From IMG/VR virus record IMGVR_UViG_3300037840_000188, positions 32,001 to 96,000 of that record: 64,000 nucleotides of DNA; one strand, given 5' to 3'. Source of the DNA: a virus. Below, piece by piece: positions 28,840 through 52,216 of the stretch. The translations under genes and the position numbers were made by a program. Below the pieces are notes generated by a model. It did no database searches, was not told where the DNA came from, and worked only from the letters and a program-made list of their open reading frames with translations. Numbering within the stretch: the first letter of the stretch is position 1; each line of letters opens with the position of its first letter.

Positions 28840-29509
28840 TTACCAATTCCCCCGCACATAATCGCGATACGTCCACTTCTGCCCCGTGATGTGATCATTC
28901 ACCTGATCATCGCGCTCGCGAACGGTTCTGCGCTTGTCGCCGCGCATGCCGCTTCCGATCTGTTGTTTGCGGTCGGCAGCCGTAGCAGCAACCGCGCGCT
29001 CCCTCTCTGCACTCCACAGTCGCGAAGTAAGCAGAGCGAGCGCCAGTTCTTTATTCCTGAACTGCGAGCGCTCGGCTTCGGAGCGCACCATCAGTCCAGT
29101 GGGGATATGTGTTAGCTGGACGGCTGTCTCGACCTTGTTGACGTTCTGCCCGCCTGCGCCTCCTGCACGGCAAGTCTGCCAATGAAGGTCTCTGGGATTG
29201 ATCGAGAATTGAGCCTGAGTCGGCTCGGGAAGGACAGCTACCGTGATTGTGGAGGTGTGGACGCGGCCACGCTTTTCGGTAGGCGAGACACGCTGCCATC
29301 GGTGGCCGCCCGCTTCGTCAGCAAAACAAGACCGGGATCGCTCAGCCACCGCTTCTGTGACTCGTAGAACCGAAAGGCCGGGACGCTCTTCGATGACTTG
29401 AGTGTTAAAGCCCCCTCCGTATGCACCTCTTCAGGTAAATGGAGAGTTGGGTCTCGACGAGCATTTTCGCGTCTAAGCCGCCCTCTGCGGCGCGGATTTC
29501 TATGATCAT
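28840..29509 (-). CDS. RF1-like release factor homolog lacking domain 1, needing a +1 frameshift at 29404-29410
   Basis: ORF0 [11 protein letters not shown]...RRGL-stop; +1 frame [20 protein letters not shown] and [15 protein letters not shown]. Confidence 0.85.
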
Positions 29510-49153: not shown

Positions 49154-49498
49154 CTACCGCCCGGTTTTCGCCGGTGTGAGGCCGAGCTTGTTCTGGAGAG
49201 CCGCCATCTTCTTGACAGCTTCAGTCTTGCGCTCGCTCGTGGTCTTGTAACCCTCAAGCTCTGCTTCGATACGCTTCAGCTCTGCCATATCGGCAGCGCG
49301 AGTGCGACGGTCGATCTCATCACGCAGAACGGTGGTCGACTTCTCCAACCATTCCGGCGCGGAGATCTGAAGGTGGCCGTACTCATTCTCCAGATTGCGC
49401 GCGTAGGCCGATAGCGTCACCGCTTCGTCCATATCAAGAACGCGATCCAGATTCAGATTCTTCAATGCCTGTAACATTGCTTTAATCCTTTCTACCAC
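49154..49498 (-). CDS. coiled-coil protein, TROVE operon
   Basis: Helical, charged. Confidence 0.65.
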   Translation of the reverse strand: MVERIKAMLQALKNLNLDRVLDMDEAVTLSAYARNLENEYGHLQISAPEWLEKSTTVLRDEIDRRTRAADMAELKRIEAELEGYKTTSERKTEAVKKMAALQNKLGLTPAKTGR

Positions 49499-49503
49499 GA
49501 AGC

Positions 49504-50097
49504 TCAGCGCGAGCGCGGCTTGGCAGTTATTTTTCGCAAATCATTCAAGCGCTCGACGAGCGCCTCGTTAGCCAGGTAAGTCTTGTAATTTATCTCATCC
49601 GGCTGATTTAGATAATGCATATCCGAGGAAACACGACCATATTCGGATGAGGCTATCCACGCCGAATATTCCATGCTCCCCCGAAGCTTATTACAGCGAC
49701 GGCAGGCGCTAACTAGATTGTCCTCAGCCGTCGCCCCACCATCCTCCCAGAGAATTACGTGATCCACCGTTAATGGCTTTTCTTGACCACAGTACCTACA
49801 CCGAAAGTGATCTCTCCGAAAGACATTCCAGCTGACGAACTGATCTATCTGCCGCTGGCTCTTTCGAAGAATCGCCTTTCCCGGCCCTCGCACATCGAGC
49901 ACGTCGGACTGATTCAGGAAGCGCTCCCACTGAGCGGTGTCCATCACGAGCAGTTCGTGCTCGCCCGCGAGGTCTTCGTCTGGTAACGGGACGAGATACA
50001 CTTTCCCGTTACCAGTCCAGATCGCACCGCCGAGTTGAATCGTGTGGCCGACTTCGAGGATGTCGAGGTCGGCTAACGTCACCTGAGTGGCGGTCAT
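49504..50097 (-). CDS. HNH endonuclease with N-terminal extension
   Basis: RDHFRCRYCG...LTVDHV...NLVSACRRCN. Confidence 0.88.
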   Translation of the reverse strand: MTATQVTLADLDILEVGHTIQLGGAIWTGNGKVYLVPLPDEDLAGEHELLVMDTAQWERFLNQSDVLDVRGPGKAILRKSQRQIDQFVSWNVFRRDHFRCRYCGQEKPLTVDHVILWEDGGATAEDNLVSACRRCNKLRGSMEYSAWIASSEYGRVSSDMHYLNQPDEINYKTYLANEALVERLNDLRKITAKPRSR

Positions 50098-51614
50098 GCC
50101 GCCACCAACTCACGAACGCCGAGCACCTGATCGAGGGTCAACAGAGGGCACGACATGATCTTTTCAACGACACCAAACCGAGAGGCGTTCATCGACTGTA
50201 CGAGGTTTGGCAGCGCATAGTAGTCGGTCCCATTCGTCAGATCATATTCCGTGAACTGCAACCCAGCCGCTGCCATTGCGGCTCCAAACAGACGCGGACT
50301 TCCATTGCCCATCGCGTACCGAGCATCAACAAATGTCCGGTACAGGTAAACCGGAACCTGCTTGTCCGTCTGGCGCTTGAAATGTTGATACGCCGTCGCG
50401 AACATCGGGTGACTGTTCTCGCCTCCATCGCCCACGATTGCGATCCCATCGATATTAAGCTTCTTGTCGAGCGCCCAAGCGAGGCCAACGCCATACGAAG
50501 TACCACCGCTGGCGAAGATGAACTTCGTCTGCCCTTTGATCTCGTCAAGCGTCTTGCCGGTTACCTCGATAGGAGTCACGTCCGTATTGCAGAAAACAAG
50601 CCATACGCGGCCCGTCACAAACTTCGCAATAGCAGCACCGATGTGCGCTCCGAGTTCAATAGCCTGCTCCTGCGACTGGCTGCGATCCACGATCACAAGC
50701 CAATCACCCTCAATCCCCCGCCCCGCATCCTTCTGAGCCTGAATCTGACGCTCCTGGAGTTCGCGAAGCATGGTCTTCAATCCCTTGTCCTCGACTTCAT
50801 CAGCCGCGACCGAGGTCTTGAGCGTTGCCTTATTGCTCTTCGTCGCCTTCGCAACTTTCTTTCGGAAGGTGTCCTTCAGCGCGGCATCTCGCGAGAGACC
50901 CTTCTTTTCGAGGCTCTTTGCCCGCGTCACGACCTCGGTATCGCTCATTTGGTCCATACCGGCCTGAACGACCTCTGAGGCCTGCTGCGTGGCCTTTGCG
51001 CCAGTCATGGCACCACTGACCACCAGTGGAGACAAATGCCACTTCTGGATCGTTGCAGCAACCTGTGCCGGGGTCATCTTCGAGAGATTCTTGATGTCGG
51101 CGAAGATCGTACCCTGCGCCGGATTGCCGTTGAACAGCACATCCGCAGCGAAAGCTGGAATCTTCGCATGAGTCAGCGCGTACAGCGACTTCAAACTGCG
51201 CCGGTGGCGAGCCGCGAGGCGGTTCCATTTGCCCGGCTCGGCAGCCTTGGCGTCGAGATAAGAATGGATCATCCGTTTGATCGCCGTATCGCGACGGCGG
51301 GCCAAATTAAGTGTGGCCGAGAAGCGGAGCGCGCGAAGAATTTCGCGCGGCGACTGCATCGCCAGATGCGCCAGCGAGTTCTCGACAAGCTCATCGGGAA
51401 ACTCACGCGTGGCCAGCGTGATCACTGGGAGAGCGATCTTTGTATCCTTTATTTGCCCGTTCGTGAAGTCAAAAGCGATTAAATGGGCGAGAAATTCCGG
51501 GTCCTGACGGCAGGCTGCGCCGATCACGTTCTGATAGGCGGCGAGGTCTCCGTGAAGGGAAAGATTTAACTTCCCTACGATTTCGTTGCGCGTGATTCCG
51601 AGTTCTTGTGACAT
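50094..51614 (-). CDS. TROVE/Ro60-like protein with C-terminal vWA domain
   Basis: Helical N-region with QDPEFLAHLI; vWA VIVDRSQS, GGTS, IVGDGGEN; Y-RNA-like genes upstream. Confidence 0.75.
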   Translation of the reverse strand: MSQELGITRNEIVGKLNLSLHGDLAAYQNVIGAACRQDPEFLAHLIAFDFTNGQIKDTKIALPVITLATREFPDELVENSLAHLAMQSPREILRALRFSATLNLARRRDTAIKRMIHSYLDAKAAEPGKWNRLAARHRRSLKSLYALTHAKIPAFAADVLFNGNPAQGTIFADIKNLSKMTPAQVAATIQKWHLSPLVVSGAMTGAKATQQASEVVQAGMDQMSDTEVVTRAKSLEKKGLSRDAALKDTFRKKVAKATKSNKATLKTSVAADEVEDKGLKTMLRELQERQIQAQKDAGRGIEGDWLVIVDRSQSQEQAIELGAHIGAAIAKFVTGRVWLVFCNTDVTPIEVTGKTLDEIKGQTKFIFASGGTSYGVGLAWALDKKLNIDGIAIVGDGGENSHPMFATAYQHFKRQTDKQVPVYLYRTFVDARYAMGNGSPRLFGAAMAAAGLQFTEYDLTNGTDYYALPNLVQSMNASRFGVVEKIMSCPLLTLDQVLGVRELVAA

Positions 51615-51623
51615 AAAAATAAA

Positions 51624-51792
51624 GGGCGGCGTGTCGATGGACTGTTGCTTTTAGGCAATCACCAAATGATTGTGCCCCGCCGTGGAGCCTCTCCCCCGTA
51701 AGCGCTTTTCAGCAGTTTTATGGGTGGGGGAGGTCGGAATCGAACCGACTGTCTTCTTGCGAAGATGCGTGTAAGTCCGTCAGTTTCCGCCC
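51624..51792 (-). ncRNA. Y RNA-like (YrlA-type, permuted T/acceptor/D)
   Basis: Terminal stem, T arm GTCGG-TTCGATT-CCGAC, closed acceptor. Confidence 0.75.
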
Positions 51793-51829
51793 TAACTTAG
51801 TGCCTCAATAAAACGGAGGCGAAATCAAA

Positions 51830-51994
51830 GGAAGCCATGTCGATGCGCTTTGCTGTTATTGGCAAGTCATGCGCTCTACCGCTGAGCTAATCGCTCACTG
51901 GTGAAATCGTTTCCGACTAGTCGACCAGTGAACGATTCTGGATTTGAACCAGAGACCTCATGAATTAAACGTGTATGCGCGTCAGTTTGCTTCC
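51830..51994 (-). ncRNA. Y RNA-like (YrlA-type, permuted)
   Basis: T arm, long closed acceptor, then D arm TAGCTCAGCGGTAGAGC. Confidence 0.85.
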
Positions 51995-52033
51995 TGTCTC
52001 GATGAAAGCCGCGTCGTCAGACTCTCGAACTTA

Positions 52034-52157
52034 TTCCCGGCATGTCGATGCGCGTTGATCCCTTACGGGAACGGTTGGAGTTGAACCAACTACCTAAAGC
52101 GTTGAAGGCTTTTGCTCTACCAAATGAGCTACGTGTAAGCGCGTCAGTGTCCGGGAA
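52034..52157 (-). ncRNA. Y RNA-like, non-permuted with UCA anticodon loop
   Basis: D arm, AAAGC-CTTCAAC-GCTTT, T arm; shared terminal motifs instead of acceptor/CCA. Confidence 0.75.
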
Positions 52158-52185
52158 AACCTTTCGAACTTGCGTCCGAAACATC

Positions 52186-52216
52186 AGACTACCACATTAC
52201 CCATGTTACCTGTCAA
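52186..52216 (-). promoter_or_regulatory. promoter of the Y-RNA/TROVE operon
   Basis: TTGACA...TGG-TAGTCT (extended -10, 19-nt spacer). Confidence 0.5.

What the first reader, a model, noticed from the sequence alone, without database searches (positions are those of the whole stretch)
52034..52157. Non-chargeable tRNA mimic displaying a UCA (opal-reading) anticodon
Seen: canonical D arm, perfect 5-bp anticodon stem with loop CU-UCA-AC, and T arm, but the acceptor stem/CCA is replaced by the shared handle. This is the opposite topology to YrlA. Inference: it could probe UGA-paused ribosomes or bait anticodon nucleases. This is notable because the phage RF looks RF1-like and RF1 does not read UGA.
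Basis: partly seen in the sequence, partly recalled or inferred. Interest (0 to 1): 0.7.

Follow-up and report, generated by a model that had tools for sequence, protein, structure and literature searches.

The report
Phage Y RNA with acceptor-less tRNA body
This 124-base element is a real, conserved small-RNA gene: a tRNA body without an acceptor stem, mounted on a conserved stem next to a phage Ro60-like protein gene, but its UCA "anticodon" is not conserved in relatives, so nothing points to a role in reading UGA.

Summary
Bases 52157-52034 fold into a D arm, a 5-bp anticodon arm (loop CU-UCA-AC) and a T arm. The Rfam tRNA model matches at 51.8 bits over positions 5-66 only, and a long terminal stem replaces the acceptor stem.

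It is the first of three tandem units sharing that stem. They lie just upstream, on the same strand, of a 506-aa gene whose predicted fold matches Ro60/Rsr over its full length; Pfam TROVE does not detect it. The best reading is a Y-RNA-like partner of a divergent phage Ro60. Its topology resembles the model proposed for D. radiodurans Yrn1 rather than YrlA.

A covariance model finds full-length homologs upstream of the Ro60-like gene in 47 of 57 related phage or MAG loci, and 26 of 29 base pairs show compensatory changes. Among 49 seven-base loops there are 19 different triplets. UCA occurs 4 times, and the nearest relatives carry UGA. U33, R37 and A38 are conserved.

TGA is an ordinary stop codon in this phage.

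This is a new variant of a known kind (Y RNA / tRNA mimic). First-stage notes of this scan had already flagged the same array and Ro60-like gene on this genome.

The parts
52034..52157 (-). C-type unit (the finding): a Y-RNA-like gene. A terminal handle carries an acceptor-less tRNA body plus a GNRA hairpin.
   Evidence: Model R1 scores 134.1 bits over its full length. Rfam tRNA scores 51.8 bits over positions 5-66. Structure.
52103..52105 (-). Triplet UCA at anticodon positions 34-36, in loop CUUCAAC (52107-52101).
   Evidence: Read. Not conserved: 19 triplets among 49 homologs.
52132..52138 (-). UUACACG. Its UACAYG core is invariant in 53 of 53 homologs and is shared by all three units of the window. 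Its last three bases form the 3-bp acceptor stub with CGU (52073-52071).
52041..52053 (-). 3' strand of the handle, GCGC-A-UCG-ACAUG, with the conserved CGA.
   Evidence: Column counts; compensatory pairs.
52059..52070 (-). Extra hairpin UCCC-GUAA-GGGA (GNRA tetraloop) at the three-way junction that replaces the acceptor stem.
   Evidence: Read. A GNRA hairpin is present at this place in 36 of 53 homologs.
51832..51995 (-). Unit B, YrlA-like permutation: handle, T arm, acceptor stem closed by a linker, D arm, handle. It is opened at the anticodon loop.
   Evidence: Rfam YrlA 27.2 bits over model 1-114, below the gathering score of 69. R1 scores 32.6 bits. Sequence.
51630..51800 (-). Unit A: handle, hairpin, T arm, acceptor stem closed by a linker, D arm, anticodon-like arm, handle. 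It is opened in the variable region.
   Evidence: T arm plus acceptor match the permuted-tmRNA models at 29.9 bits. R1 scores 40.4 bits. Sequence.
52208..52213 (-). TTGACA box about 50 nt upstream of the first unit, a possible -35 element. A TTGAC box stands at the same place in related loci.
   Evidence: Seen by eye. The strict sigma-70 scan found no promoter, so this is weak.
50094..51614 (-). 506-aa divergent Ro60/Rsr-like protein (HEAT-repeat ring plus vWA domain with a MIDAS motif), the presumed protein partner of the RNAs.
   Evidence: AF2 mean pLDDT 84.5. The top 13 Foldseek PDB hits are all Ro60/Rsr/TROVE, E 7e-9 to 4e-6, 470-535 aligned columns. D310, S312 and S314 are invariant. No Pfam TROVE hit.
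49504..50097 (-). HNH endonuclease gene overlapping the Ro60-like stop codon by 4 nt.
   Evidence: Pfam HNH, E 1e-12. Homologs lie beside the Ro60-like gene in 29 of 66 loci, at varying positions.
49154..49498 (-). 114-aa protein of unknown fold, a conserved downstream neighbour of the Ro60-like gene.
   Evidence: tblastn finds it directly downstream in 50 of 66 loci. No family or Atlas match.

Best explanation
The element is a Y-RNA-like non-coding RNA gene. It is one of three transcribed from the minus strand just ahead of a highly divergent phage Ro60/Rsr gene.

Its paired 5' and 3' ends form a conserved, bulged handle: P1, then A-C-U-G opposite C-G-A-Y-U-U, then P2, then the invariant UACAYG. 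This handle is the presumed docking site for the Ro60-like ring. The other end is an L-shaped tRNA body (D arm, anticodon arm, T arm) in which the handle and a small GNRA hairpin replace the acceptor stem. The RNA therefore cannot be aminoacylated.

By analogy with D. radiodurans Yrn1, Salmonella YrlA and the Thermus phage phiLo Yrl RNAs, the tRNA-shaped module would act in one of two ways. It could be the effector or tether end, bringing a host tRNA- or RNA-binding factor such as PNPase to Ro60 or gating Ro60's cavity. Or it could be a nuclease-resistant cap.

What is selected in the anticodon arm is its shape (5-bp stem, 7-nt loop, U33, purine 37, A38), not the triplet. UCA in this phage is a lineage-specific variant one substitution from the commonest UGA, and it has no demonstrated link to UGA decoding.

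Shown: the structure, its conservation, its synteny and the Ro60 fold of the neighbouring protein. Inferred: Ro60 binding, expression and processing, and the identity of any effector.
For: 1. Structure. tRNA core at 51.8 bits without an acceptor stem. Consensus fold with 18 of 29 covarying pairs in 8 sequences and 26 of 29 in 53 sequences, with 96.7% of cells paired against 31-44% in slid controls.

2. Partner protein. The adjacent 506-aa protein has a full-length Ro60 fold. The top 13 PDB hits are all Ro60/Rsr/TROVE, including phage phiLo Ro60. The profile also weakly finds TROVE chains, co-linearly. The vWA MIDAS residues are invariant.

3. Synteny. Model R1 gives full-length hits of 55-134 bits, all on the gene's strand and upstream of it, in 47 of 57 non-redundant loci whose Ro60-like proteins are only 36-66% identical. 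In the whole 141-kb phage the only strong hit is this element.

4. Handle. It is shared by three units with different cores in the window and in relatives. UACAYG is invariant in 53 of 53.

5. Anticodon. 19 triplets among 49 loops; positions 35 and 36 are nearly random while U33, R37 and A38 are conserved. Four of the seven nearest relatives carry UGA.

6. Precedent. Y RNAs are encoded upstream of Ro60 on the same strand and mimic tRNA, and Yrn1 has been modelled with D, anticodon-like and T arms (PMC4201824). Two Yrl RNAs lie upstream of phiLo Ro60 and bind it together with host PNPase (PMC12135203).
Against: - No expression or binding data.
- Pfam TROVE does not detect the protein, so Ro60 identity rests on a predicted fold with TM 0.53-0.59.
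- The handle lacks the GNCGAAN0-1G motif on its 5' strand that marks the Ro60 site of YrlA. Only a CGA on the 3' strand resembles it. The unit does not match Rfam YrlA.
- No canonical sigma-70 promoter or terminator was found by the strict scan.
- In all 6 loops with G36, position 37 is also G. This tRNA-like rule hints that the loop is under more tRNA-specific constraint than a mere structural cap would need.
Confidence: 0.75

Rival explanations
1. Anticodon-arm decoy. The RNP displays an uncleavable or sacrificial anticodon stem-loop that baits host tRNA-targeting defence nucleases or tRNA-modifying enzymes. The triplet varies because each phage matches the tRNA attacked in its own host.
For: The loop keeps tRNA hallmarks (U33, R37, A38). 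It also obeys a tRNA-like 36-37 rule: G36 is always followed by G37, 6 of 6, Fisher p = 1.5e-5, not corrected for phylogeny. Triplets differ even between units with identical stems, so the triplet turns over faster than the stem. The phage carries 23 tRNA genes of its own, a repertoire often read as a response to tRNA depletion; that reading is from my own knowledge.
Against: The near-zero information at positions 35 and 36 is what neutral drift gives, so no signal separates diversifying selection from no selection. Several triplets (UCA, UUA, AAU, AUA) match no usual bacterial tRNA. No anticodon-nuclease or antitoxin gene was recognised nearby.
Confidence: 0.12
2. Leader or processing element of the Ro60-like mRNA. 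The units are cis-acting structured 5' leader modules, for example RNase P/RNase E processing or stability signals or autoregulatory Ro60 binding sites, rather than free trans-acting RNAs.
For: The units are always on the same strand directly upstream of the gene. The spacers carry a recurring AAGUU word. No terminator lies between the array and the gene.
Against: Arrays of 1 to 8 or more units with different cores occur, some separated from the gene by an HNH ORF and some downstream of the operon. That fits independent RNA genes. Known Ro60 loci have the same layout and produce free Y RNAs (PMC4201824, PMC12135203).
Confidence: 0.07
3. Decayed or unusual tRNA gene unrelated to Ro60. It would be a tRNA pseudogene, or a precursor that is processed into a working (opal-suppressor) tRNA.
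For: Strong tRNA-model score for the core. True tRNA genes sit within or next to some of the related arrays (hits covering model positions 28-104 only).
Against: The acceptor stem is absent in all 53 homologs, yet the replacement handle is conserved and covaries. A pseudogene would not keep 26 of 29 compensated pairs. No 3' CCA or acceptor partner exists. TGA is an ordinary stop codon.
Confidence: 0.03
4. One reading: a probe of UGA-paused ribosomes through the UCA anticodon.
For: The window's unit does carry UCA in a canonical 7-nt loop. The phage encodes only a truncated RF-like protein.
Against: UCA occurs in 4 of 49 homologs, scattered among lineages. There is no acceptor end to reach the peptidyl-transferase centre. 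The RF fragment's tripeptide is SPT, not the RF1 motif. TGA is used as a normal stop codon.
Confidence: 0.02

Closest known systems
Deinococcus radiodurans Yrn1 (Y RNA bound by Rsr; tethers Rsr to PNPase in RYPER)
   Same: Encoded upstream of the Ro60 gene on the same strand. A terminal stem made by the 5' and 3' ends carries the protein site. The effector end has been modelled as D-like arm, anticodon-like arm and T arm, with the terminal stem in the place of the acceptor stem (PMC4201824).
   Different: Yrn1's tRNA likeness is weak: a 6-nt 'anticodon' loop, no variable region, and no dihydrouridine detected (PMC4201824). Here the core is a near-canonical tRNA at 51.8 bits with a 7-nt loop, a variable region and all elbow nucleotides. 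The handle sequence is different, and the partner protein is a Ro60 too divergent for Pfam TROVE. Sequence homology to Yrn1 was not tested because no model was at hand.
YrlA (Rfam RF02553), the tRNA-mimicking Y RNA of Salmonella, Mycobacterium and mycobacteriophages
   Same: A Ro60-adjacent, modular RNA with a tRNA-like L-shaped effector domain that lacks a free CCA end. The window's middle unit (51832-51995) has the YrlA arm order and gives a full-length but sub-threshold YrlA match (27.2 bits).
   Different: YrlA's order is T arm, closed acceptor stem, D arm, with no anticodon loop (bioRxiv 10.1101/312249). The finding has D arm, anticodon arm, T arm and no acceptor stem. It gives no YrlA match. 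The GNCGAAN0-1G motif is absent from the 5' strand.
Thermus phage phiLo Ro60 with Yrl1/Yrl2 (PDB 9KOP, 9L5Y; PMC12135203)
   Same: A phage-encoded Ro60 with Y-RNA-like genes directly upstream. The phiLo protein is among the best structural matches of the 506-aa protein.
   Different: The phiLo Yrls are described as stem-bulge-stem RNAs with a CGAA motif, not as tRNA bodies. Sequence identity between the proteins is about 15%.
Canonical tRNA and opal-suppressor tRNA
   Same: D, anticodon and T arms, U8, G18G19, the T-loop UUCRA, and U33 and R37 in the loop.
   Different: No acceptor stem, discriminator base or CCA end. Not called by ARAGORN. The triplet is not conserved.

Membership tests
tRNA (RF00005) | Cloverleaf core: D arm, anticodon arm, T arm with elbow nucleotides | tested here: met
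   51.8 bits against a gathering score of 29, model positions 5-66.
tRNA (RF00005) | 7-bp acceptor stem with a free 3' end for CCA and aminoacylation | tested here: not met
   Model positions 1-4 and 67-71 are unmatched. ARAGORN makes no call. Only a 3-bp stub is present, followed by a hairpin and the handle. The stem is absent in all 53 homologs.
Opal-reading (UCA) tRNA or mimic | UCA triplet conserved among homologs | tested here: not met
   UCA in 4 of 49 loops; 19 different triplets; 0.07 and 0.17 bits at positions 35 and 36.
YrlA (RF02553) | Match to the covariance model at the gathering score (69 bits) | tested here: not met
   No YrlA match over this unit. The neighbouring unit reaches only 27.2 bits.
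YrlA (RF02553) | Arm order T arm, closed acceptor stem, D arm; no anticodon loop | tested here: not met
   The order here is D arm, anticodon arm, T arm. YrlA order taken from bioRxiv 10.1101/312249.
YrlA (RF02553) | GNCGAAN0-1G motif on the 5' strand of the Ro60-binding stem (PMC4201824) | tested here: not met
   The 5' strand consensus is A-C-U-G. A conserved C-G-A-Y-U-U lies on the 3' strand instead.
Y RNA (general) | Long stem formed by the 5' and 3' ends plus a distal effector module, about 80-130 nt | tested here: met
   124 nt. Helices P1, P1b and P2 are 89-98% paired with compensatory changes in 14 of 15 pairs.
Y RNA (general) | Encoded next to a Ro60 ortholog on the same strand | tested here: met
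   The 3' end of the three-unit array lies about 15 nt upstream of the Ro60-fold gene, and this unit's own 3' end lies 420 nt upstream. The same arrangement holds in 47 of 57 loci.
Y RNA (general) | Physically bound and stabilised by Ro60 | not testable with these tools
   Needs RIP or EMSA. No protein-RNA modelling tool was available.
Ro60/Rsr (TROVE) - the neighbouring protein | Pfam TROVE domain (PF05731) | tested here: not met
   No hit at E <= 10. None in the whole phage. No homolog carries it in the precomputed Pfam column.
Ro60/Rsr (TROVE) - the neighbouring protein | HEAT-repeat ring followed by a vWA domain with a MIDAS motif | tested here: met
   Full-length Foldseek matches to 12 Ro60/Rsr entries, E 7e-9 to 4e-6, TM 0.53-0.59. 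D310, S312, S314, T372 and D396 are invariant. Based on a predicted model with mean pLDDT 84.5.

The most novel reading that the evidence does not exclude
A large, so far unannotated clade of phage Ro60-like proteins (invisible to Pfam TROVE) carries arrays of Y-like RNAs that present the tRNA body in three different circular permutations. In the acceptor-less form, a complete anticodon arm would be displayed as a fast-evolving, host-matched decoy. The RNP, possibly with the coupled HNH nuclease and the conserved 114-aa partner, would use it to capture or neutralise host tRNA-targeting defence nucleases or tRNA-modifying enzymes.
Probability: 0.1. Interest if true: 0.8.

Novelty: new variant of a known kind. 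Interest (0 to 1): 0.45.

Why it matters
Y RNAs and their tRNA mimicry are known, but what the tRNA-like module does remains open. This family offers a natural experiment. One conserved handle carries the tRNA body opened at the acceptor stem, at the anticodon loop or in the variable region, side by side in one operon and in dozens of phages.

The acceptor-less form is by far the most tRNA-like Y-RNA module with an intact anticodon arm that I could find described. It also exposes a Ro60 clade that domain databases miss, so Ro60/Y-RNA systems in phages are probably under-counted.

For the specific claim, the value is negative. The UCA triplet should not be read as evidence for stop-codon biology in this phage.

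Tried and rejected
1. Exact handle word in IMG/VR. The 7 hits were all chance matches inside coding sequence, none with the 3' handle. Relatives had to be found through the protein instead.

2. Flanking 174-aa protein as a synteny anchor. No relatives found.

3. blastn of the array against GenBank phages. Only generic tRNA-core hits; no homologous array.

4. Pfam, PHROGs, NCBIfam and PDB sequence search for the 506-aa protein. Nothing significant. Only the profile search hinted at TROVE, at E 0.76. The fold search settled it.

5. A host-type Rsr encoded in the phage. No TROVE hit in the 141-kb record.

6. Idea that the handle is a splicing or ribozyme motif that would close permuted tRNAs into working ones. 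Rejected for this unit, because removing the handle leaves no acceptor stem. No Rfam ribozyme match.

7. Strict sigma-70 promoter and terminator scan. Nothing on the relevant strand.

8. Expression evidence.

9. Function of the 114-aa neighbour. The Atlas gave no usable lead.

10. TGA recoding in this phage. Rejected: TGA ends 9 of 26 long minus-strand frames.

Full report
OBSERVATION

The element is real and sits at exactly the given coordinates, but it is read on the minus strand, 5' end at 52157 and 3' end at 52034.

From 5' to 3' the unit contains:
- An outer stem UUCCCGG, which pairs with CCGGGAA at the 3' end.
- A conserved internal region: ACAC-UGA-C on the 5' side, A-UCG-ACAUG on the 3' side.
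- A 4-bp helix GCGC/GCGC.
- The word UUACACG.
- A textbook tRNA core: U8-A9; D arm GCUC-AUUUGGUA-GAGC; anticodon arm AAAGC-CUUCAAC-GCUUU; variable region AGGUA; T arm GUUGG-UUCAACU-CCAAC.

Only three base pairs (ACG/CGU) stand where the acceptor stem should be. They are followed by an extra GNRA hairpin (UCCC-GUAA-GGGA) and the 3' strand of the handle.

Rfam's tRNA model matches at 51.8 bits (gathering score 29), but only over positions 5-66 of 71. ARAGORN normal tRNAs elsewhere in the window and does not call this one. The single-sequence fold reproduces the handle, the D arm and the anticodon arm, but mis-pairs the T arm.

CONTEXT IN THE WINDOW

The unit is the first of three tandem units on the minus strand, at 52157-52034, about 51995-51832, and about 51800-51630. 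All three share the same handle. The 17-nt word ACUGACGNNCNUACACG occurs exactly three times against 0.32 expected (repeats).

The cores differ:
- The middle unit has the YrlA order (T arm, acceptor stem closed by a linker, D arm) and gives a full-length but sub-threshold YrlA match at 27.2 bits.
- The last unit has T arm, closed acceptor stem, D arm and an anticodon-like arm, and is opened in the variable region.

About 15 nt downstream of the array starts a 506-aa ORF (51614-50094). It is followed by an HNH gene overlapping by 4 nt and by a 114-aa ORF.

The window is part of a 141-kb IMG/VR phage record judged complete.

THE NEIGHBOURING PROTEIN IS A DIVERGENT Ro60

Pfam, PHROGs, NCBIfam and a PDB sequence search gave nothing for the 506-aa protein. 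No TROVE domain is found anywhere in the phage.

Some homologs carry vWA Pfam domains. A profile of 34 homologs weakly and co-linearly hits 'TROVE domain-containing protein' chains at E 0.76.

An AlphaFold2 model built from that alignment has mean pLDDT 84.5. It was searched against the PDB. The top 13 matches are all Ro60/Rsr/TROVE structures: D. radiodurans Rsr, Xenopus and human Ro60, and Thermus phage phiLo Ro60. They align over 470-535 columns at E 7e-9 to 4e-6 and TM 0.53-0.59. Isolated vWA domains follow far behind. The MIDAS residues (D310, S312, S314, T372, D396) are invariant.

I therefore take the protein to be a highly divergent Ro60. This rests on a predicted structure.

THE RNA FAMILY

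Protein-guided searches recovered 66 IMG/VR loci and 4 loci in MAGs of Solibacteraceae, Acidobacteriaceae, Terrimicrobiaceae and Clostridia. The two closest relatives carry the same three-unit array upstream of the gene, in the same or rearranged order. Other relatives have one to at least eight units, including a handle with almost no insert.

A covariance model was built from eight acceptor-less units. It finds full-length matches of 55-134 bits in 47 of 57 non-redundant sources. All are on the strand of the gene and upstream of it. In the whole phage genome the only strong match is the finding itself, and the two sister units score 40 and 33 bits.

On the 53-sequence alignment:
- 96.7% of pair cells are standard pairs, against 31-44% when partners are slid by one to three columns.
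- 26 of 29 pairs have compensatory changes, including all five anticodon-stem pairs and all seven outer-stem pairs. The alignment is model-fitted and so leans towards the structure, but the margin is very large.

Invariant or nearly invariant handle positions are U-A-C-A-Y-G (53 of 53, Y = U or C), A-C-U-G on the 5' strand and C-G-A-Y-U-U on the 3' strand. A GNRA hairpin is present at the junction in 36 of 53.

THE ANTICODON

Of the 53 homologs, 49 have a 7-nt loop. Those 49 carry 19 different triplets: UGA 8, UUC 5, UCA 4, AAU 4, CUU 4, UGU 3, UUG 3, and others.

Information content by loop position:

| Position | Bits |
|---|---|
| 34 | 0.49 |
| 35 | 0.07 |
| 36 | 0.17 |
| U33 | 1.27 |
| R37 | 1.00 |
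| A38 | 1.38 |

The four UCA holders are no more similar to each other than random pairs. Of the seven nearest relatives of the window's unit (70-76% identical), four carry UGA, which is one substitution from UCA, and the other three carry AAA, CUG and AUA. Units with identical stems carry different triplets.

The loop's tRNA-like shape is therefore conserved and the triplet is not.

Two further points weaken the UGA story:
- TGA terminates 9 of 26 long minus-strand frames, so it is an ordinary stop codon.
- The phage's 'RF' is a 169-aa fragment corresponding to the C-terminal half of RF1 (181 bits against a cut-off of 400). At the codon-recognition tripeptide it reads SPT rather than RF1's PxT or RF2's SPF. 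Its specificity cannot be inferred.

MECHANISM

The layout matches known Ro60/Y-RNA systems: small RNAs upstream of Ro60 on the same strand, a terminal bulged stem that is constant, and a distal module that varies.
- YrlA RNAs lie within 4 kb of Ro60 on the same strand and mimic tRNA. Yrn1 of D. radiodurans was modelled with T and D arms in the opposite orientation to YrlA and with an anticodon-like arm between them (PMC4201824).
- YrlA's crystal structure shows T arm, closed acceptor stem and D arm, with no anticodon loop (bioRxiv 10.1101/312249).
- Thermus phage phiLo has two Yrl genes upstream of its Ro60, and they bind it together with host PNPase (PMC12135203).

I therefore read the finding as a Y-RNA-like partner of the phage Ro60, with Yrn1-type topology but a far more canonical tRNA body. 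The handle would dock on Ro60. The tRNA-shaped end would tether an effector or gate the ring, or would simply resist nucleases. Binding, expression and the effector are inferred, not shown.

The handle is not the YrlA site. The GNCGAAN0-1G motif is missing from the 5' strand, and only a CGA on the 3' strand resembles it.

RIVALS

- An anticodon-arm decoy against tRNA-targeting defences cannot be excluded. The loop obeys a tRNA-like rule: G36 always comes with G37, 6 of 6, Fisher p = 1.5e-5, uncorrected for phylogeny. The triplet also turns over faster than the stem. Near-random composition is equally what drift produces.
- A purely cis-acting leader fits less well with arrays of many different units, some of them separated from the gene or downstream of it.
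- A decayed or pre-tRNA gene fits less well with conservation of the handle.
- A UGA-ribosome probe is the least supported.

NOVELTY AND VERDICT

Known: Y RNAs, their tRNA mimicry and phage Ro60.

New here:
- A large Ro60 clade that domain models miss.
- Arrays in which one handle carries three different permutations of the tRNA body.
- An acceptor-less unit with a complete anticodon arm, conserved in about 50 phage contigs.

That makes it a new variant of a known kind. The specific UCA/opal claim is not supported.

First-stage notes of this scan had already flagged the array and the Ro60-like gene on this same genome. I had reached the same reading independently, and I tested it here.

Noticed in passing
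window 28840-29349 (-): The phage encodes a truncated release-factor-like protein of 169 aa (the frame is open for about 196 aa). It matches only the C-terminal half of RF1: 181 bits against a cut-off of 400, with RF2 at 129 bits and PrfH at 85 bits. At the codon-recognition tripeptide it reads S-P-T, a hybrid of RF1's PxT and RF2's SPF. It sits inside the tRNA gene cluster.
   Followed up: partly
alignment A4 (53 homologs of the unit), loop positions 36-37: All 6 loops with G36 also have G37, while only 4 of 43 others have G37 (Fisher p = 1.5e-5, not corrected for phylogeny). The six are not closer relatives than average. This mirrors the G36-G37 (m1G37) rule of real tRNAs and hints that the loop is treated like a tRNA loop.
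   Followed up: partly
window 49154-49498 (-) and 49504-50097 (-): The 114-aa ORF of unknown fold follows the Ro60-like gene in 50 of 66 related loci. An HNH endonuclease homolog (27-60% identity) is in the operon in 29 of 66, sometimes downstream of and sometimes upstream of the Ro60-like gene. That makes it a recurrent partner rather than an obvious one-off homing insertion.
   Followed up: partly
L061:2363-2435 and L018:1100-2400: Related arrays vary widely. L018 carries at least seven handle units plus tRNA-like pieces in 1.3 kb. L061 has a 'minimal' unit that is a handle with only about 25 nt inserted. True tRNA genes (model hits covering only the tRNA core) lie within or beside several arrays.
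   Followed up: partly
window 52161-52171, 52022-52032, about 51803-51812 (-) and the unit spacers of L015-L019, L037, L061: A short word, (A)AGUU(C/A), recurs a few bases after the 3' end of each unit and before the next one. It could be a processing signal. Nothing was tested.
   Followed up: no
L084 (Solibacteraceae MAG, 428-kb contig), L085, L086, L087: The closest cellular-genome relative of the Ro60-like gene (68% identity) lies on a 428-kb contig of a Solibacteraceae (Acidobacteriota) MAG, with an acceptor-less unit upstream (69 bits). The gene seems shortened there: a 300-aa product is recorded. This suggests an acidobacterial host or a prophage copy.
   Followed up: partly
window 51630-51800 (-): The third unit's T arm plus closed acceptor stem (CUCCCCC-A ... 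GGGGGAG) matches the permuted-tmRNA and beta-tmRNA models better than it matches tRNA (29.9 and 24.2 bits, sub-threshold). The resemblance is probably convergent, arising from the T-arm-to-acceptor order.
   Followed up: no
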